From Thermoanaerobaculia bacterium (GTDB lineage Bacteria; Acidobacteriota; Thermoanaerobaculia; UBA5066), in the NCBI GenBank assembly GCA_963816185.1, contig CAWFJJ010000028.1, positions 224,001-288,000 of the forward strand: DNA of 64,000 nt, in the 5' to 3' direction. The notes beneath the pieces were generated by a model that saw only the letters and a program-made list of their open reading frames with translations, was not told the DNA's origin and searched no databases. Shown here piece by piece: positions 44,446 through 52,097 of this stretch (positions within the stretch are counted from its first letter, which is position 1; each line of letters starts with the position of its first letter). The position numbers and the translations under genes are program-made.

Positions 44446-44592
44446 ATGGTCACGAAAAAGGGGAAGACGACGAAGAAGATGAAGGATCTGGGCGCCAGGA
44501 AGGTGACGGCCAAGCAAGCCGGGAAGGTCAAAGGAGGCATAGGCGCAGGGGGCGGCGGCGGCTCAGGGAAAGTGGGTTGGATCAAGGTCTGA
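44446..44592 (+). CDS. Double-glycine leader peptide P1, core IGAGGGGGSGKVGWIKV
   Basis: MVTKKGKTTKKMKDLGARKVTAKQAGKVKGG leader; AAAGGA RBS. Confidence 0.75.
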   Translation: MVTKKGKTTKKMKDLGARKVTAKQAGKVKGGIGAGGGGGSGKVGWIKV

Positions 44593-44633
44593 CGAGCGCC
44601 ACTTGCCGGAAAGGCCGCCGGGATCGTCGGTCG

Positions 44634-44918
44634 ATGAAGACAGGCCGCCGTAGGAGCAGGTCTTCGCCGGGGGTCGTCCCACTCAGGGACCTCGTCCCCC
44701 GAAACGACCCCAAGGGGGGCATGGCACAGAAGACGGTCTTCGGCGAAGGTCCCCCGGTTCTCGAGACAGAGGAGAAGCAGCCTTTCACGACGTTCGGGCC
44801 GAACGAAGGCGGAAGCCGGGTCACGGCCAGAACAGGGAGAAAGGAGAAGCGAAATGAAAAAGGCCACGAAGAATTCCCCGAAGGTCTCTCACAAGAAGGC
44901 GAAGGACCTCGAGGTTAA
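44634..44918 (+). CDS. Small protein with VVPLRDLVPRNDPKGG...KTVFGE motif, copy 1
   Basis: Paralog at 51215; 3' part runs through the array repeat. Confidence 0.55.
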   Translation: MKTGRRRSRSSPGVVPLRDLVPRNDPKGGMAQKTVFGEGPPVLETEEKQPFTTFGPNEGGSRVTARTGRKEKRNEKGHEEFPEGLSQEGEGPRG

Positions 44919-44997
44919 GCCTGCCAAGGGCGGCACGGTTCGTGGAGGGCTCGGAGGGAGCCACGGAGACGACACCCCAATAGAAAGTCGTCGTTGA
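44854..44997 (+). CDS. Double-glycine leader peptide P2, core LGGSHGDDTPIESRR
   Basis: MKKATKNSPKVSHKKAKDLEVKPAKGGTVRGG; AAGGAG RBS. Confidence 0.85.
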   Translation: MKKATKNSPKVSHKKAKDLEVKPAKGGTVRGGLGGSHGDDTPIESRR

Positions 44998-45102
44998 CGC
45001 GCGAAGACCTGTATCACTCGTAGCAAGGTTACCGTTGCTGTCGATGGCTTTTGGAAGGCAGTAGCCTGCTCGCGGCCAAAACAGGAAGTAAGGAGACACG
45101 AC

Positions 45103-45234
45103 ATGAAGACCAAGAAGAAGAGCGCCCCGAAGGCTTCCCACAGGAAGGCGGTCAGAAATCTCGACATCAAGCCCGCCAAGGGTGGGACGGTGCGTGGAGG
45201 AAGGAAAGCAGGCGAAAAACCGCTGGAGTTTTGA
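45103..45234 (+). CDS. Double-glycine leader peptide P3, core RKAGEKPLEF
   Basis: MKTKKKSAPKASHRKAVRNLDIKPAKGGTVRGG; AAGGAG RBS. Confidence 0.85.
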   Translation: MKTKKKSAPKASHRKAVRNLDIKPAKGGTVRGGRKAGEKPLEF

Positions 45235-45397
45235 GTATCAGCGACAATTGAAGTCGCCGCTGCCGGCGAGGTCGTTTCACGCCGTAGAAGGGCTCGCCCC
45301 TCAGGCAGCACATTCCTGCGGCAGCTTTCATCGGATGTTCCGGCCGAACGAAGGCAGAAGCCGGGTCACGACCGAAACAAGAAAGAGGAGAAACGAC

Positions 45398-45529
45398 ATG
45401 AAGAAGACCACGAAGAAGAGCCCCTCGAAGGCCTCTCACAAGAAGACGGTCAAGGACCTCGACGTCAAGCCCGCCAAGGGTGGGACCGTTCGTGGGGGCT
45501 TCCCGACGCCATGGAGAAGCAAGCCCTAA
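45398..45529 (+). CDS. Double-glycine leader peptide P4, core FPTPWRSKP
   Basis: MKKTTKKSPSKASHKKTVKDLDVKPAKGGTVRGG; GAGGAG RBS. Confidence 0.85.
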   Translation: MKKTTKKSPSKASHKKTVKDLDVKPAKGGTVRGGFPTPWRSKP

Positions 45530-45570
45530 GGCCGCTCGAAATGACGCGGCATCCAGAAAGGAGCAGCGAC

Positions 45571-45666
45571 ATGAAGAAGGCTACGAAGAAAACCCCCTCG
45601 AAAGCCTCTCAGAAGAAGGCGGTCAAGGACTTCGACGTCAAGCCCAGCAAAGGGGGAACGGTTTGA
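45571..45666 (+). pseudogene. Peptide P5 leader truncated by IS3 just before RGG
   Basis: MKKATKKTPSKASQKKAVKDFDVKPSKGGTV, then the IS terminal TGA. Confidence 0.8.
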
Positions 45667-45713
45667 ATCGCCCCGGCATTTCCGGAGGCTCCAACACTTG
45701 AGAGGATGGAGCG

Positions 45714-46034
45714 ATGGGAAGACGAGGCAGATACCCGGCGGAGGTCAAGGAGCGGGCCGTGCGGCTGGTCTTCGAGCAGCAGTCGGAGCACGGCTCGCAG
45801 TGGGCGACGATCAGCTCGATCGCGGGCAAGATGGGCTGCACGCCCGAGACGCTGCGGAGCTGGGTCAGGCAGGCCGAGCGAGACAGCGGCGCACGGCCCG
45901 GACTGACGACGTCAGAGCGTGAGCGGCTCAAGGAGCTCGAGCGTGAGGTCCGCGAGTTGCGGCGAGCCAACGAGATTCTGAAGAAGGCCTCGGCGTATTT
46001 TGCGCAGGCGGAGCTCGACCGCCGAGCGAAGTGA
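45714..46034 (+). CDS. IS3 transposase OrfA
   Basis: [28 protein letters not shown]. Confidence 0.93.
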
Positions 46035-50479: not shown

Positions 50480-50691
50480 GCACCGGCACCGTCAACACGT
50501 CCTTCGCCCCGATTGGCTCGAATCTCCCGGACTGCGGCAACTTCTTTTGCCGTGACCGCCGACGCATCGTCCATGTGCGGAAGGGATCTCCAGGCTTTCG
50601 CGCGTGCCCGACGCCGGGATGCACGCGGCCGACGGGGTTCGGAGCGTTCGCCGGGGTGCCGCGACCTGCGCGAGAATTGAGACGCCGATGA
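50476..50691 (+). CDS. Small Cys-rich protein, paralog of 47505
   Basis: MSTGTVNTSFAPIGSNLPD...CPTPGC; GTGA overlap with kinase stop. Confidence 0.5.
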   Translation: MSTGTVNTSFAPIGSNLPDCGNFFCRDRRRIVHVRKGSPGFRACPTPGCTRPTGFGAFAGVPRPARELRRR

Positions 50692-50939
50692 GTTCGACGC
50701 GAACCCCCTCATGCTTCTTCTGCGGCCGAACCTCGCCTTTTTCGTTCTTCATGGGGGCGTCGCGGATAGACTGTCCGACCTGCGGCTCGTACGATGTGAC
50801 TGTCGGCGTGAGCAGCCGGATCCGTTCCAACCCGCAGATGAAGGCGTTGGTCCGCGCGGAGATCCGCAGGCAACTTGACAGCGGAGTCGCGAGGCCGCGC
50901 ATCAACCTCGACGACATCAAGGCACTCAAGGGGCGTTGA
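50688..50939 (+). CDS. Small Zn-ribbon protein, paralog B
   Basis: CFFC...CPTC; paralog of 42934. Confidence 0.7.
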   Translation: MSSTRTPSCFFCGRTSPFSFFMGASRIDCPTCGSYDVTVGVSSRIRSNPQMKALVRAEIRRQLDSGVARPRINLDDIKALKGR

Positions 50940-51064
50940 CCTCGGCTGTCGGCCTGCCTCAGGTCCCCTCGCCTGTCACAAGCACCCGCGCCTCCCCCGG
51001 CGCGGCCTCCGCCTCGGGGAGCGACCTCCCCGGCTCGATACGCTCGACGACGCCGAGGCCCGCG

Positions 51065-51174
51065 ACGGCGCCGCCTCGGAATGAGCCACTCGAAACGATG
51101 CAGCATCGCATCGAAACGAGACAGGTCGGTCCGAGATAGGCGCCGCTGAGGGCTTGAGACCGCTTCTCAGCCTA
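51065..51174 (+). promoter_or_regulatory. Conserved non-coding block upstream of peptide array 2
   Basis: Matches 44228-44338. Confidence 0.5.
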
Positions 51175-51214
51175 CGGCATGGCGTTTGCCTTCCGTTCAG
51201 CCGGCCATAGTGCG

Positions 51215-51439
51215 ATGAACACACGCCGCCGCAGGACAAAGCCGCCGCCGGGGGTCGTCCCCCTCAGGGACCTCGTCCCCCGGAACGACCCCAAGGGGGG
51301 CTCGGCCGGGAAGACGGTTTTCGGCGAGCGTCCCCTGGTCACCGAGACAGAGGAAAAGCAGCACATTCAGGATGTTCCGGTCGAACGAAGGCGGAAGCCG
51401 GGTCACGGCCGAAACAGCACGAAAGGAGAAACGACATGA
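51215..51439 (+). CDS. Small protein with VVPLRDLVPRNDPKGG...KTVFGE motif, copy 2
   Basis: Paralog of 44634. Confidence 0.55.
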   Translation: MNTRRRRTKPPPGVVPLRDLVPRNDPKGGSAGKTVFGERPLVTETEEKQHIQDVPVERRRKPGHGRNSTKGETT

Positions 51440-51597
51440 AGACCACGAAGAAAACCCCCTCGAAGCCCGCTCACAAGAGGGCGATCAAGGACCTTGACGT
51501 CAAGTCCGTCAAGGGCCGCACGGTTCGTGGGGGAATCGTGAAACTTGTCGACGCGGACTCTCCCAAACTCCACGATACGCCCGTGAAGGGCGGGTAA
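51436..51597 (+). CDS. Double-glycine leader peptide P8, core IVKLVDADSPKLHDTPVKGG
   Basis: MKTTKKTPSKPAHKRAIKDLDVKSVKGRTVRGG; AAGGAG RBS. Confidence 0.85.
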   Translation: MKTTKKTPSKPAHKRAIKDLDVKSVKGRTVRGGIVKLVDADSPKLHDTPVKGG

Positions 51598-51713
51598 GGA
51601 CTGAAGCAACTCGAACACCACACCGCTTCCCGCGAGCGCAAACATGGTCCGGCGCCGGAGGTCTAGAGCGGCTCGTCGGGTCACGCCCGAAACAGGAAGT
51701 AAGGAGACACGAC

Positions 51714-51866
51714 ATGAAAAAGACCACGAAGAAAAGCCCCTCGAAGGTTTCTCACAAGAAGGCGGCCAAGGACCTCGCCGTCAATCCCGCCAAGGGCAGG
51801 ACGGTCCGTGGAGGCCTTGGAAGCGTCGAGGGAGAGTCGATTCGCAAAGGTCACAGTCCAGATTGA
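51714..51866 (+). CDS. Double-glycine leader peptide P9, core LGSVEGESIRKGHSPD
   Basis: MKKTTKKSPSKVSHKKAAKDLAVNPAKGRTVRGG; AAGGAG RBS. Confidence 0.85.
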   Translation: MKKTTKKSPSKVSHKKAAKDLAVNPAKGRTVRGGLGSVEGESIRKGHSPD

Positions 51867-51956
51867 CTACGGGAGGAATTAGCCCTCTCAGGACGTTCCG
51901 GCCGAACGAAGGCAGAAGCCGGGTCACGACCGAAACGGGAAGAAAGGAGAAAAGCC

Positions 51957-52097
51957 ATGAAGAAGACCACGAAGAAGACCGTCTCGAAGGCTTCTCACAA
52001 GAAGGGAGTCAAGGACCTCGACGTCAAGCCCGTCAAGGGCGGGTCGGTCCGTGGAGGGAGCTTGTACCCGGGTTACCCCAAGGACAAAACGGAATAG
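51957..52097 (+). CDS. Double-glycine leader peptide P10, core SLYPGYPKDKTE
   Basis: MKKTTKKTVSKASHKKGVKDLDVKPVKGGSVRGG; AAGGAG RBS. Confidence 0.85.
   Translation: MKKTTKKTVSKASHKKGVKDLDVKPVKGGSVRGGSLYPGYPKDKTE

What the first reader, a model, noticed from the sequence alone, without database searches (positions are those of the whole stretch)
44446..52097. Array of double-glycine leader peptides whose variable cores look like fragments of the T6SS tube protein Hcp
Seen: ten tiny paralogous genes (43-53 aa; P5 truncated), each with its own RBS. They share a Lys-rich leader (consensus MKKTTKKSPSKASHKKxVKDLDVKPAKGGTVRGG) followed by a different 9-20 aa core. Compared from memory with Hcp (P. 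aeruginosa Hcp1 and relatives), seven cores map along the protein: P9 LGSVEGESIRKGH ~ IGDVKGESKDKTH; P1 GAGGGGGSGKV ~ GGGGGAGKV; P6 VSEIIITKRID ~ VQDLSFTKYID; P8 IVKLVDADSPKL...KG ~ K.VD.ASPKL...G; P3 RKAGEKPLEF ~ RKAG...(L/V)EY; P7 LWRAGGGPIKY ~ L.RAGG...KY or C-terminal GGP(I/V)KY; P2 LGGSHGDDTPIES ~ TGGSGGEDRLTEN. P4 and P10 have no clear match. No hcp gene or T6SS cluster is in the window. Inference: a library of Hcp-mimic peptides on a shared leader, possibly blocking tube assembly (T6SS/phage tail/eCIS), acting as decoys or signals, or recording foreign tube proteins. I know of no described system like this.
Basis: partly seen in the sequence, partly recalled or inferred. Interest (0 to 1): 0.95.

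Follow-up and report, generated by a model that had tools for sequence, protein, structure and literature searches.

The report
Exported peptide library tiling Hcp
A soil bacterium carries dozens of tiny genes for exported, probably chemically modified peptides whose variable ends are pieces of Hcp, the tube protein of a common bacterial weapon, and relatives that lack the weapon carry them too, so the peptides may be aimed at other bacteria's weapons.

Summary
The window has 10 small genes (P1-P10): a Lys-rich leader ending in Gly-Gly, then a variable core.

- **More copies:** the genome holds 19 more. One relative has 10, and 146 metagenome proteins share the leader.
- **Cores versus Hcp:** of 123 distinct cores, 53 beat all 200 shuffles against an Hcp profile (about 0.6 expected). 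The leaders behave as null.
- **Pfam:** Hcp is the only recurrent hit.
- **Tiling:** the cores tile the whole Hcp with overlapping, variable ends.

Context makes this a RiPP-like system. A cNMP-gated C39 peptidase/ABC exporter, HlyD and a sigma-54 activator sit next to the largest array. Embedded in the arrays are a Cys-cluster enzyme with a C-terminal RRE domain, modelled to bind the leader, and a TPR-GT41 glycosyltransferase. A second lineage has B12-radical-SAM enzymes.

That lineage (two genomes) has Hcp-fragment peptides on divergent leaders, but no full-length Hcp, TssC or TssF was found there. The peptides therefore do not need the producer's own T6SS.

What the peptides do is not shown. 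I infer mimicry of foreign Hcp (about 0.3). My literature searches found no described system like this.

The parts
44446..44592 (+). P1 precursor. Its leader is divergent (MVTKKGKTTKKMKDLGARKVTAKQAGKVKGG), of the type seen in G029/G039. Core: IGAGGGGGSGKVGWIKV.
   Evidence: Core versus Hcp profile p=0.02. Maps to the Gly-rich loop region.
44632..44853 (+). 'Element 2': a conserved ~220-nt head of a sub-array. It reads as a further Gly-Gly peptide (..PLRDLVPRNDPKGG then (S/M)A(G/Q)KTVFGE..). Its frame runs into the 5' region of P2.
   Evidence: Repeat D4, 44632-44781 versus 51213-51362, 84%. 7 copies in the genome, 1 in G011, and a related peptide in G029/G039. Copies differ by compensating frameshifts in the N-terminal part.
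44854..44997 (+). P2 precursor. Core: LGGSHGDDTPIESRR.
   Evidence: p<=0.005 versus Hcp.
45103..45234 (+). P3 precursor. Core: RKAGEKPLEF.
   Evidence: p<=0.005. The own Hcp has RKAGGDDPLEF.
45398..45529 (+). P4 precursor. Core: FPTPWRSKP, not Hcp-like. A paralogue with core FPTPWKNKV is on contig C6.
   Evidence: No alignment to the Hcp profile. No source found in the own proteome.
45571..45666 (+). P5. The leader alone remains, ending at ..GGTV where the IS3 copy begins.
45657..46980 (+). IS3-family insertion sequence with an ALIL frameshift pseudoknot. It is one arm of an inverted pair with 53300-54623.
   Evidence: Inverted repeat I1, 1324 nt, 99%. Rfam ALIL, 95 bits, at 45992-46108. ORFs.
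47027..47158 (+). P6 precursor. Core: VSEIIITKRIDR.
   Evidence: p<=0.005.
47307..47444 (+). P7 precursor. Core: LWRAGGGPIKY.
   Evidence: p<=0.005.
47747..50479 (+). Ser/Thr protein kinase with a C-terminal TPR region (910 aa), sitting inside the array. It is a possible sensor or regulator, by inference only. It is flanked by a 193-nt direct repeat (47503-47695 and 50474-50666).
   Evidence: Pfam Pkinase 3.5e-50 plus TPR families. Weak NCBIfam match of residues 490-817 to TIGR04510 'putative peptide modification system cyclase', E 5.4e-6. Repeat D3, 85%.
51176..51189 (+). Sigma-54-like -24/-12 motif, GGCAT-N5-TTGC, about 25 nt upstream of the second element 2.
   Evidence: Pattern scan. The same motif form lies upstream of the C12 peptide. 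A sigma-54 activator is encoded beside the exporter. The motif match alone is weak.
51213..51435 (+). Second copy of 'element 2', heading the P8-P10 sub-array.
51436..51597 (+). P8 precursor. Core: IVKLVDADSPKLHDTPVKGG.
   Evidence: p<=0.005.
51714..51866 (+). P9 precursor. Core: LGSVEGESIRKGHSPD.
   Evidence: p<=0.005. The own Hcp has IDGVEGESEDSKHKK.
51957..52097 (+). P10 precursor. Core: SLYPGYPKDKTE, not Hcp-like. A metagenome variant has NLYPGFPKDKTE.
   Evidence: No alignment to the Hcp profile.

Best explanation
**What it is (confidence about 0.85).** These are precursor genes of a multi-precursor, RiPP-like peptide system. Each gene encodes a conserved Lys-rich leader of about 32-34 residues ending in Gly-Gly, then a hypervariable core of 6-33 residues.
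- The leader is predicted to be held by the RRE (leader-recognition) domain of a Cys-cluster enzyme encoded inside the arrays.
- Cores are probably modified by that enzyme and by a TPR-GT41 glycosyltransferase. In a sister lineage, B12-dependent radical-SAM enzymes are also present.
- The leader is then probably cut after Gly-Gly and the peptide exported. The exporter is a C39-peptidase ABC transporter with two cyclic-nucleotide-binding domains, with a HlyD adaptor, encoded with a sigma-54 activator next to the largest array (contig C6).

**What is unusual.** The cores are pieces of the T6SS tube protein Hcp. Together they tile its whole length, with overlapping and variable ends.

**What it does (inferred, about 0.3).** Relatives in which no T6SS was found carry the same kind of library. 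The peptides therefore most likely act on other bacteria's Hcp or T6SS. They could work as stabilised strand or segment mimics that interfere with Hcp ring or tube contacts or with Hcp partners.

**Shown.** The genes, the leader-core anatomy, the Hcp likeness, the gene neighbourhood and the taxonomic pattern.

**Inferred.** Cleavage, export, modification and target.

The single confidence value (0.55) is for the statement as a whole.
For: **Copies**
- 28 ORFs in the genome match the leader profile, plus P1 with a divergent leader.
- G011 has 10.
- 146 metagenome proteins match at E<=0.001. JGI's own pipeline named 6 of the 120 listed 'type VI protein secretion system component Hcp'.

**Hcp likeness**
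- 53 of 123 distinct cores beat all 200 shuffles and 67 have p<=0.05.
- Leaders are null, 4 of 87. Reversed cores give 0 of 47 at p<=0.005.
- Pfam-wide, T6SS_HCP is hit by 3 of 36 peptides (best E 0.0011) and 18 of 96 (best 7.4e-5). Every other family is hit by at most 2.
- The PDB search with P0038 returned 9 sequences. Six are named Hcp, EvpC or PA0085 (some as fusions), two are 7fcf 'Fimbrial protein' and one is uncharacterised.
- The cores tile the whole Hcp.

**Export and RiPP context**
- On C6, a transporter with two cNMP-binding domains, a C39 peptidase and ABC domains (1060 aa) is followed by HlyD, a sigma-54 activator and then the array.
- The same order occurs in G011 and G029.
- A 380-aa protein with 8 invariant Cys is embedded in the arrays. 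Its residues 291-378 match RRE domains: MccB Z 7.6 (rmsd 3.2, 80 aligned), TigE 7.1, MibB 6.7, TbtB 6.7, the PbtF RRE 6.3, and also NisB, TbiB1, LynD and PqqD.
- The complex model gives ipSAE 0.62 against a best control of 0.00. That mark was reached by 58 of 80 solved complexes and 2 of 110 mismatched pairs. The runs agree in at least 70% of contacts and the partner's pLDDT is at least 54. Leader residues 16-32 lie on the RRE strand and helix and near the Cys cluster.
- TPR-GT41 follows the 'WIE..S.S' peptide in both G000 and G011.
- G029 has two B12-radical-SAM genes in its array.

**Translation**
- Leader pN/pS is 0.23 over 5 G029-G039 ortholog pairs.

**Independence from the producer's T6SS**
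- G029 (99% complete) and G039 (96%) have only partial PF05638 matches (14 and 10). Neither has a TssC or TssF match.
- Both still carry many Hcp-fragment peptides on divergent leaders, next to their single C39 exporter.
Against: - There is no evidence of expression, cleavage, export or modification. No RNA holder was listed.
- 56 of the 123 cores are not significantly Hcp-like. Some of these recur (FPTPW.., (S/N)LYPG(Y/F)PKDKTE..PPGPP....KWPG), and I found no source for them.
- Core pN/pS is about 0.95, from only 5 pairs. That fits relaxed or diversifying evolution as well as it fits maintained mimicry.
- Exported peptides have no obvious route to cytoplasmic Hcp in another cell.
- The exporter is not in the window; it lies on another contig of a draft genome (94.9% complete, 3.4% contamination).
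- The RRE matches have middling Z (5-7.6). The catalytic domain has no structural relative (best Z 3.1), so the chemistry is unknown.
- The G029/G039 loci, except L100, were picked through Hcp hits, so their enrichment figures are biased.
- 'No T6SS' in G029 and G039 rests on three marker families in near-complete but not closed genomes.
Confidence: 0.55

Rival explanations
1. This is a diversity-oriented antimicrobial or otherwise bioactive RiPP library. Pieces of hcp genes were only the evolutionary raw material for new cores, and the Hcp likeness has no role in how the peptides act.
For: - Many-precursor systems with a conserved leader, hypervariable cores and a C39 exporter are a known design. 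The exporter's best NCBIfam hit is the NHLP-type model TIGR03796, 527 bits.
- Core pN/pS is about 0.95.
- Core GC3 is 0.69 against 0.835 for the leaders.
- About 45% of cores are no longer Hcp-like, as expected if cores drift after capture.
- Near-identical leaders carry unrelated cores.
Against: - It does not explain why Hcp, and no other family, recurs. Pfam-wide, only PF05638 recurs, and the non-matching cores find no other source.
- The likeness is kept across two families with quite different leaders.
- Variants of the same segment mirror different natural Hcp variants, for example ..IGDIKGES.. and ..IDGIRGES.. in one ortholog pair.
- No recent DNA copy from the genome's own hcp genes is seen.
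Confidence: 0.25
2. The peptides are signals. Exported Hcp-like peptides would act as pheromones or alarm signals that imitate the breakdown products of injected Hcp. Membrane sensors such as the TPR Ser/Thr kinase in the array would sense them, with feedback through cyclic nucleotide and sigma-54 control.
For: - A kinase with an extracytoplasmic TPR region lies inside the window array. A second kinase lies next to the C12 peptide.
- The exporter has two cNMP-binding domains.
- A sigma-54 activator is conserved beside it.
- A conserved, non-variable Gly-Gly peptide ('element 2') heads the sub-arrays, as induction peptides do in some bacteriocin loci (that comparison is recalled).
Against: - Dozens of different signals per genome are hard to reconcile with one or two receptors.
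- Kinases are very common in this phylum (recalled). The one in the window is flanked by repeats and IS copies, so its position may be accidental.
- No kinase was seen in the G011 or G029 arrays among the ORFs I scanned.
Confidence: 0.15
3. The peptides control the producer's own T6SS. They would hold back or tune assembly of the cell's own Hcp until they are exported.
For: - G000 and G011 have hcp, tssC and tssF.
- One peptide gene lies about 180 nt upstream of an Hcp-like gene on C29.
Against: - G029 and G039 carry the libraries, but no full-length Hcp, TssC or TssF was found there.
- 23 of the 24 other same-genus genomes searched lack the leader family, while 8 of 10 sampled in the genus have Hcp.
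- The arrays are not in the T6SS locus on C25.
Confidence: 0.04
4. These are decayed hcp fragments or a repeat element that only looks like genes and is not translated. Alternatively, the Hcp likeness is chance.
For: - The window array is broken up by IS3 copies and repeats. P5 is truncated.
- No expression data exist.
Against: - Leader pN/pS is 0.23.
- The ribosome-binding site and ATG are conserved in every unit.
- The fragment order is not collinear with Hcp, and the similarity stops at the stop codons.
- Synteny with the exporter and enzymes is kept in three genomes.
- The leader-RRE model passes its controls.
- The shuffle and Pfam statistics exclude chance.
Confidence: 0.03

Closest known systems
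Multi-precursor RiPP systems with Gly-Gly leaders and C39-peptidase ABC exporters (NHLP/Nif11-type 'microcin' systems, prochlorosin-like libraries; names recalled, model names)
   Same: - Many paralogous precursors share a conserved leader ending in Gly-Gly and have hypervariable cores.
- The exporter's best NCBIfam model is TIGR03796, the NHLP-family export ABC transporter with peptidase (527 bits).
- The HlyD partner weakly matches TIGR03794.
- Tailoring enzymes sit inside the array.
   Different: - The leader matches no curated leader model: 0 NCBIfam families for 8 window peptides at E<=10.
- The exporter scores below the model's cut-off (853.3) and carries two N-terminal cNMP-binding domains.
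- The cores are not arbitrary. They are fragments of one structural protein, Hcp.
- The tailoring set is different: a Cys-cluster enzyme with an RRE, and TPR-GT41.
Proteusin-type RiPPs with B12-dependent radical-SAM tailoring (recalled)
   Same: The G029 array holds two B12-binding radical-SAM genes between the precursor genes. Precursors are long-leader and exported by a C39 transporter.
   Different: No radical-SAM gene was seen in the G000 or G011 arrays among the ORFs I scanned. The leader is not of the nitrile-hydratase type. No evidence of the chemistry exists.
Hcp (TssD), Pfam PF05638
   Same: About half of the cores align significantly to Hcp. As a set they cover its full length, including the exact C-terminal end..GWDQLANKKV-stop against the own Hcp's ..GWDVKANKKL-stop.
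   Different: These are 6-33-residue pieces on an export leader. They are not tube subunits, cannot form the Hcp fold, and also occur in genomes where no T6SS was found.
Strand-mimicking RiPP antibiotics such as darobactin (recalled), and the designed biomimetic peptide that blocks the T6SS baseplate (PMC8406304, seen as search listing and abstract start only)
   Same: The concept is shared: a short, stabilised peptide copies a segment of a protein to block a protein-protein contact. The synthetic case shows that a protein-fragment mimic can inhibit a T6SS.
   Different: Those are single peptides against one interface. Here a natural, genome-encoded set covers a whole protein, and no target has been shown.
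FliB, flagellin lysine methyltransferase with a [4Fe-4S] cluster on a CX4CX3CC motif likened to PF03692 (PMC8598068, passages read)
   Same: The array enzyme has invariant C39, C42, C66 and C67 plus four more Cys. Of 60 homologues, 11 weakly hit PF03692. The nearest named Atlas cluster is 'YkgJ family cysteine cluster protein', score 0.81, a lead only. The substrates are Lys-rich.
   Different: The protein itself hits no Pfam or NCBIfam model. It has an RRE domain that, as far as I know, FliB is not described to have (recalled). Its catalytic domain has no structural match.

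Membership tests
Double-glycine leader peptides exported by C39-peptidase ABC transporters | A conserved N-terminal leader ending in Gly-Gly, directly followed by the variable mature part | tested here: met
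   G33 and G34 are invariant in 36 aligned peptides. DNA homology between units ends right after ..VRGG.
Double-glycine leader peptides exported by C39-peptidase ABC transporters | A dedicated C39-peptidase/ABC exporter and HlyD-type adaptor encoded with the precursors | tested here: met
   Met in the genome on contig C6, directly upstream of the 16-gene array, and also in G011 and G029. Not present in the window itself. HlyD is split into two ORFs in G000.
Double-glycine leader peptides exported by C39-peptidase ABC transporters | Cleavage after Gly-Gly, and export | not testable with these tools
   Needs expression and mass spectrometry.
Curated Gly-Gly leader families (NCBIfam/TIGRFAM leader models such as Nif11 and NHLP; names recalled) | A match to a curated leader model | tested here: not met
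   0 families for 8 window peptides at E<=10.
RiPP biosynthetic system | An enzyme with a leader-recognition (RRE) domain encoded next to the precursors | tested here: met
   Residues 291-378 of the 380-aa array protein match RRE domains of MccB, TigE, MibB, TbtB, PbtF, NisB, TbiB1, LynD and PqqD (Z 4.3-7.6). Z is middling, but the hits are consistent.
RiPP biosynthetic system | The leader binds the RRE | tested here: met
   This is a model only. ipSAE 0.62 against a best control of 0.00. The mark was reached by 58 of 80 solved complexes and 2 of 110 mismatched pairs. Runs agree in at least 70% of contacts and the partner's pLDDT is at least 54. RRE-leader complexes are solved, so the pass may partly reflect likeness to them.
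RiPP biosynthetic system | Post-translational modification of the core | not testable with these tools
   The candidate enzymes are the Cys-cluster enzyme, TPR-GT41 and B12-radical-SAM. No chemistry is known.
Hcp / T6SS_HCP (PF05638) | The whole Hcp domain (129 profile positions) in one chain | tested here: not met
   Cores are 6-33 residues. The Pfam matches seen cover about 30 profile positions, for example 37-68 and 38-67.
Hcp / T6SS_HCP (PF05638) | Significant sequence likeness to the family | tested here: met
   53 of 123 cores at p<=0.005. 18 of 96 and 3 of 36 peptides hit PF05638 in Pfam-wide scans.
NHLP-type export transporter (TIGR03796 equivalog) | A score above the curated cut-off | tested here: not met
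   527 bits against a cut-off of 853.3. It is the best hit but below threshold, and two extra cNMP-binding domains are present.
PF03692 CxxCxxCC / FliB-like Fe-S enzymes | A match to the family profile and its Cys motif | tested here: inconclusive
   The protein itself has no hit at E<=10. 11 of 60 homologues hit weakly, best E 0.0017. It has CxxC at 39-42 and CC at 66-67, separated by 23 residues.

The most novel reading that the evidence does not exclude
Some bacteria, including lineages in which no T6SS was found, encode and export a modified peptide library that copies every segment of the T6SS tube protein Hcp. It would work as a countermeasure against neighbours' T6SS, by interfering with Hcp assembly or Hcp partners, or as a mimic of 'attack' peptides. 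That would be a natural, genome-encoded 'peptide scan' of an enemy weapon, and a new principle both for RiPP core evolution and for defence against T6SS.
Probability: 0.3. Interest if true: 0.95.

Novelty: new variant of a known kind. Interest (0 to 1): 0.85.

Why it matters
RiPP libraries with hypervariable cores are known, but where new cores come from, and why, is mostly unexplained. Here the cores have a recognisable source and theme: one conserved structural protein of a widespread bacterial weapon, covered end to end.

If the likeness is functional, three things follow.
- It would be the first natural peptide mimicry directed at the T6SS tube.
- It would be a new kind of interbacterial defence or interference, found in organisms that do not themselves appear to have the weapon.
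- It would give ready-made leads for peptide inhibitors of T6SS assembly.

If the likeness is only ancestry, it still shows a route by which precursor cores are recruited from an unrelated gene.

The work also points to two further things. One is a large uncharacterised enzyme family: 1659 cluster representatives, with 8 invariant Cys and an RRE domain, likely a new RiPP tailoring enzyme. The other is a conserved module of a cNMP-gated exporter with a sigma-54 activator.

Tried and rejected
- **Wider locus search with the leader.** Three related-loci runs failed on query form. A tighter alignment then found only G011 in genome contigs and 4 short metagenome contigs.
- **Leader profile in other genomes.** Found in 1 of 40 relatives and 0 of 400 class genomes.
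- **Read-through of the stop codons in three frames.** Hcp similarity does not continue. The one exception is a short ..DKASP*IY**A.. stretch in two G011 duplicates.
- **Leader derived from the Hcp C-terminal region.** This was suggested by a 4.6-bit secondary alignment. It is not supported: 4 of 87 leaders have p<=0.05.
- **Source of the 56 non-Hcp cores in the own six-frame proteome.** Only chance-level hits. I did not test them separately against out-of-frame or antisense hcp.
- **Nucleotide identity between cores and the own hcp genes.** Only matches of 17 nt or less.
- **A leader fused to full-length Hcp ('longer' search).** 2 hits, both mis-called read-through ORFs of arrays. This is weak evidence of absence.
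- **Rfam on 43500-53000.** Only ALIL, in the IS3 copy.
- **Sigma-54 motif.** Clear only at window 51176 and C12:20071. Other units lack it.
- **Catalytic domain of the array enzyme.** No fold match: Foldseek has none at E<=0.001 and VIA's best Z is 3.1.
- **Enzyme homologues in 7 other Acidobacteriota genomes.** No Hcp-core peptides within the stretches fetched.
- **The second C39 exporter, on C29.** It belongs to a separate LanM lanthipeptide island.
- **RNA evidence.** No RNA holder was listed.
- **Generic Gly-Gly peptide scan of G000.** It added only P1.
- **Literature.** Five searches found no paper on Hcp-like Gly-Gly or RiPP peptides. Supplements were not seen.

Full report
**1. What is in the window**

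Between 44446 and 52097 there are ten small plus-strand genes.

| Gene | Coordinates | Note |
|---|---|---|
| P1 | 44446-44592 | Divergent leader |
| P2 | 44854-44997 | |
| P3 | 45103-45234 | |
| P4 | 45398-45529 | |
| P5 | 45571-45666 | Leader only, ending where an IS3 copy begins |
| P6 | 47027-47158 | |
| P7 | 47307-47444 | |
| P8 | 51436-51597 | |
| P9 | 51714-51866 | |
| P10 | 51957-52097 | |

- P2-P10 share a leader with consensus MKKTTKKSPSKASHKKAVKDLDVKPAKGGTVRGG.
- Each unit has a conserved 5' stretch of about 65 nt with AAGGAG a few bases before the ATG.
- DNA homology between units ends right after the codons for ..VRGG. No conserved 3' element follows.
- P1 has a different basic leader ending in ..KVKGG. 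It resembles the leaders later found in another lineage.

The array is interrupted in several ways.
- An inverted pair of IS3 copies lies at 45657-46980 and 53300-54623 (1324 nt, 99%). It carries an ALIL frameshift element.
- A 910-aa Ser/Thr kinase with a TPR region lies at 47747-50479. It is flanked by a 193-nt direct repeat.
- Two copies of a further conserved element of about 220 nt ('element 2', at 44632 and 51213) head the sub-arrays.

The contig is G+C-rich, 62-72% in 2-kb windows. The window's contig holds none of the genome's six PF05638 matches.

**2. The family is much larger than the window**

- A profile of the nine leaders found 28 ORFs in the whole genome: 17 on contig C6, 9 on the window's contig, and 1 each on C12 and C29.
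- A generic scan added only P1.
- Among 40 relatives, only G011 has the leader, with 10 copies. That is 1 of 24 other genomes of the genus.
- None of 400 sampled genomes of the class has it.
- The record title that the tool printed for G011's contig names a Thermoanaerobaculia MAG.
- In the 5.8-billion-protein collection, 146 proteins match at E<=0.001. JGI's own annotation of the 120 listed 'type VI protein secretion system component Hcp'.

**3. Are the cores really Hcp-like?**

The genome's own Hcp genes are on C25 and C29. By eye several cores line up with them, including the exact C-terminal end: core IHGGWDQLANKKV-stop against the Hcp end ..MGWDVKANKKL-stop.

I built an Hcp profile from 27 distinct Hcp proteins of genomes of the same class. 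Every distinct core was scored against 200 shuffles of itself.

| Test | Result |
|---|---|
| 123 distinct cores versus Hcp profile | 53 beat all shuffles (p<=0.005, about 0.6 expected); 67 have p<=0.05 |
| Window cores | P2, P3, P6, P7, P8, P9 p<=0.005; P1 0.02; P4 and P10 no alignment |
| Leaders (control) | 4 of 87 at p<=0.05 |
| Reversed cores, second data set (control) | 0 of 47 at p<=0.005 |
| Pfam scan, 36 peptides of G000 and G011 | T6SS_HCP hit by 3 (best E 0.0011); one other family once (E 0.18) |
| Pfam scan, 96 metagenome peptides | T6SS_HCP hit by 18 (best E 7.4e-5); no other of 24,736 families by more than 2 |
| PDB search, peptide P0038 | 9 sequences: six named Hcp, EvpC or PA0085 (some as fusions), two 7fcf 'Fimbrial protein', one uncharacterised |
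| PDB search, peptide P0072 | Two 'Hcp1 family' chains at E about 0.55, plus one unrelated protein |

- Laid on the profile, the significant cores tile the entire Hcp with overlapping, variable start and end points.
- Chance is excluded.
- 56 of the 123 cores are not significantly Hcp-like. A few of these are plainly the Hcp C-terminus by eye but too short for HMMER.
- Others recur without any source that I could find in the own proteome: FPTPW.., (S/N)LYPG(Y/F)PKDKTE..PPGPP....KWPG.

**4. What kind of genes are these?**

*Export module*
- On C6 the largest array lies directly downstream of a 1060-aa transporter. It has two cyclic-nucleotide-binding domains, a C39 peptidase domain and ABC transporter domains.
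- Its best NCBIfam model is the NHLP-family bacteriocin exporter TIGR03796, at 527 bits, below the cut-off of 853.3.
- It is followed by a HlyD-type adaptor, split into two ORFs in this assembly.
- Next comes a sigma-54 activator without a receiver domain.

*Genes inside the arrays*
- Two copies of a 380-aa protein with no Pfam or NCBIfam match.
- A TPR-GT41 glycosyltransferase. A paralogue lies next to the C12 peptide together with a sugar epimerase/dehydratase.

*Conservation*
- G011 has the same order: exporter, HlyD, sigma-54 activator, then an array holding TPR-GT41 and two copies of the 380-aa protein.
- In both genomes the peptide with a 'WIE..S.S' core directly precedes the GT41 gene.
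- In both genomes a peptide gene directly precedes each copy of the 380-aa gene.

**5. The 380-aa protein**

- It belongs to a large unnamed family: 1659 cluster representatives at E<=0.001. The Atlas finds it commonest in Myxococcota.
- It has eight invariant cysteines: C39, C42, C66, C67, C136, C148, C158 and C163.
- Of 60 homologues, 11 weakly hit PF03692 (CxxCxxCC). A paper on FliB likens this motif to FliB's [4Fe-4S]-binding CX4CX3CC motif (PMC8598068, passages read). This is a lead only.
- The AlphaFold model is confident (pLDDT 90.6).
- Its C-terminal residues 291-378 match RiPP leader-recognition (RRE) domains almost exclusively. The matches are MccB (Z 7.6, rmsd 3.2, 80 aligned), TigE (7.1), MibB (6.7), TbtB (6.7), the PbtF RRE (6.3), MadB, McbB, ThcOx, NisB, TbiB1, a lasso B1 protein, LynD and PqqD.
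- The Z values are middling, but the list is consistent.
- The N-terminal 290 residues, modelled alone (pLDDT 91.3), have no structural relative (best Z 3.1).

A complex model of the enzyme with precursor P4 supports binding.
- ipSAE is 0.62 against 0.00 for the best of three controls.
- That mark was reached by 58 of 80 solved complexes and 2 of 110 mismatched pairs.
- The runs agree in at least 70% of contacts and the partner's pLDDT is at least 54.
- Leader residues 16-32 lie on the RRE strand (318-325) and helix (352-366), next to the Cys-cluster region.
- RRE-leader complexes are solved, so the pass partly shows likeness to them.

**6. A second lineage, without a T6SS**

- In the Hcp family scan, two genomes of another family of the same order stood out for many first-look candidates: G029 (99% complete) and G039 (96%).
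- They have only partial PF05638 matches, 14 and 10. These cover, for example, profile positions 1-33, 38-82 and 58-94.
- Neither has a TssC (PF05943) or TssF (PF05947) match. G000 and G011 have both.
- The partial matches are small ORFs with basic leaders of a different sequence, for example MATKRGKRPTKKVKSLKSKSLSAGKAKGVRGG. They end in Gly-Gly, followed by Hcp pieces such as ITKLVDKSSAVLFQKCATGEHFGK, RKAGGEQKEFLTIKMNEVIITSV or GWDVKANRKY.
- Of 47 distinct cores there, 21 beat all shuffles.
- These loci, except L100, were chosen through Hcp hits, so that fraction is biased upward.
- Each genome has a single C39 exporter, directly beside an array. In G029 I scanned it, and it has the same cNMP-C39-ABC architecture.
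- The G029 array runs HlyD, sigma-54 activator, peptides, two B12-binding radical-SAM enzymes, peptides, and a homologue of the 380-aa enzyme.
- In a phylum-wide sample, 59 of 401 genomes have a PF05638 match. Only G000 (6 matches) and G029 (8) show the many-fragments pattern.

**7. Evolutionary signals**

- *Selection.* Five orthologous precursor pairs between G029 and G039 give pN/pS 0.23 for leaders and 0.95 for cores. The sample is small. The leaders are under coding constraint and the cores change fast.
- *One informative pair.* Both versions of the core remain good but different Hcp N-termini..FAKIGDIKGESQESSHKDWIEIL.. and ..FLKIDGIRGESADSNHKDWIEVL...
- *Mosaics.* Units with 97%-identical 5' regions and leaders carry unrelated cores. 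The homology breaks at the Gly-Gly junction and does not resume after the core. Recombination inside the conserved leader is enough to explain this.
- *Composition.* Core GC3 is 0.69 against 0.835 for leaders in G000, and 0.70 against 0.82 in G011.
- *Origin.* Core DNA shows no long identity to the genome's own hcp genes. The cores are therefore not fresh copies of those genes.
- *No leader-Hcp fusion.* A search for a leader fused to full-length Hcp gave only mis-called read-through ORFs.

**8. Interpretation**

*Well supported.* This is a multi-precursor, exported, RiPP-like peptide system with a conserved module of cNMP-gated exporter, HlyD and sigma-54 activator. Its cores are a fragment library of Hcp.

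*Function is inference.*
- Control of the producer's own T6SS is unlikely. Two genomes where no T6SS was found carry the libraries. Of the 24 other genomes of the genus searched, 23 lack the leader family, while 8 of 10 genomes sampled in the genus have Hcp.
- Decay products or untranslated repeats are unlikely. The evidence is the leader constraint, the conserved ribosome-binding sites, the conserved synteny and the leader-RRE model.
- I rank highest (about 0.3) that the mature peptides mimic segments of other bacteria's Hcp and interfere with T6SS function or Hcp partners.
- A designed fragment-mimic peptide is reported to inhibit a T6SS baseplate (PMC8406304, listing and abstract start only). 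Strand-mimicking RiPP antibiotics also exist (recalled).
- The obvious weakness is access: Hcp assembles in the attacker's cytoplasm.
- The rivals are 'Hcp as raw material only' (0.25) and 'signal or alarm peptides sensed by the associated kinases' (0.15).

**9. Novelty**

- Five full-text searches found no paper describing Gly-Gly or RiPP precursors with Hcp-like cores. Supplementary files could not be seen.
- No curated NCBIfam model covers the leader.
- The machinery is a variant of a known kind. A precursor family whose cores tile one foreign-weapon protein is, as far as I could find, undescribed.

Noticed in passing
window 45657-46980 and 53300-54623: Two IS3-family copies (1324 nt, 99%) in inverted orientation bracket P6-P10, the kinase and a resolvase gene (52360-52977). 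P5 is cut at one arm. The sequence just after that arm repeats the P4-P5 spacer, so an IS-mediated inversion or rearrangement of the array is likely.
   Followed up: partly
window 47503-47695 and 50474-50666: A 193-nt direct repeat (85%) flanks the kinase gene. Each copy encodes a Cys-rich, zinc-ribbon-like small ORF (..FCRDCRRIIHVRKGSPGFRACPTPGCTRPTGFG..). The kinase may have arrived as an insertion.
   Followed up: no
window 44632-44853 and 51213-51435; C6 14294, 16247, 17830, 19711, 20270: 'Element 2' reads as a non-variable Gly-Gly peptide (..LRDLVPRNDPKGG then SAGKTVFGE..). Its frame ends in an ATGA overlap with the next precursor's start codon. A related peptide (..LKDLAPRDEVKGG then AGKRIFGD..) has the same amino-acid sequence in G029 and G039. 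It could be an induction peptide or a regulatory upstream ORF. Copies in G000 differ by compensating frameshifts near the N-terminus.
   Followed up: partly
L011 (G000:C29:439000-458999), about 1000-17000: A low-G+C island (58-63% against about 68% elsewhere) holds a separate class II lanthipeptide cluster: a C39 ABC exporter, HlyD, a MacB-like permease and a LanM (DUF4135 plus LANC_like). One Hcp-core precursor and a divergent Hcp-like gene lie at its far end.
   Followed up: partly
G011:C1:3152913-3156595: The TssC and TssF matches in G011 are split over several frames, and G000's TssF match is split in two with an in-frame TGA. This could be assembly indels or a decaying T6SS. It is worth checking, because it bears on whether the producers keep a working T6SS.
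   Followed up: no
L105 17739-18239, L111 12248-12610, L113 3560-3730 and 9711-9875: G029 and G039 also hold another Gly-Gly precursor type. The leader is ..KLKLKRETLKDLD..VKGG, with hydrophobic or Cys-bearing cores (for example VIIELGVSAVVMACISVLVCPEPPRKTKK). It lies next to Hcp-core precursors.
   Followed up: no
L100 3061-3396 and L115 4474-4836: The cores RDAASGLPTGKRMHKP and ARDAAAGLPTGKRMHKP are not scored as Hcp-like by my profile. By eye they resemble the ..SVTGKRTHRP.. segment of the divergent Hcp-like protein on C29. The library may sample more than one Hcp subfamily.
   Followed up: no
L010 210-2459 (-), = G000:C6:4209-6458: A prolyl oligopeptidase (S9) gene lies about 2 kb upstream of the exporter, on the opposite strand. 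It is a possible processing enzyme for the peptides, untested.
   Followed up: no
G000:C24:391019-391861: A 281-codon open frame has a short Hcp-like stretch (PF05638 positions 7-57, 27.9 bits) and no leader. Its nature is unknown.
   Followed up: no
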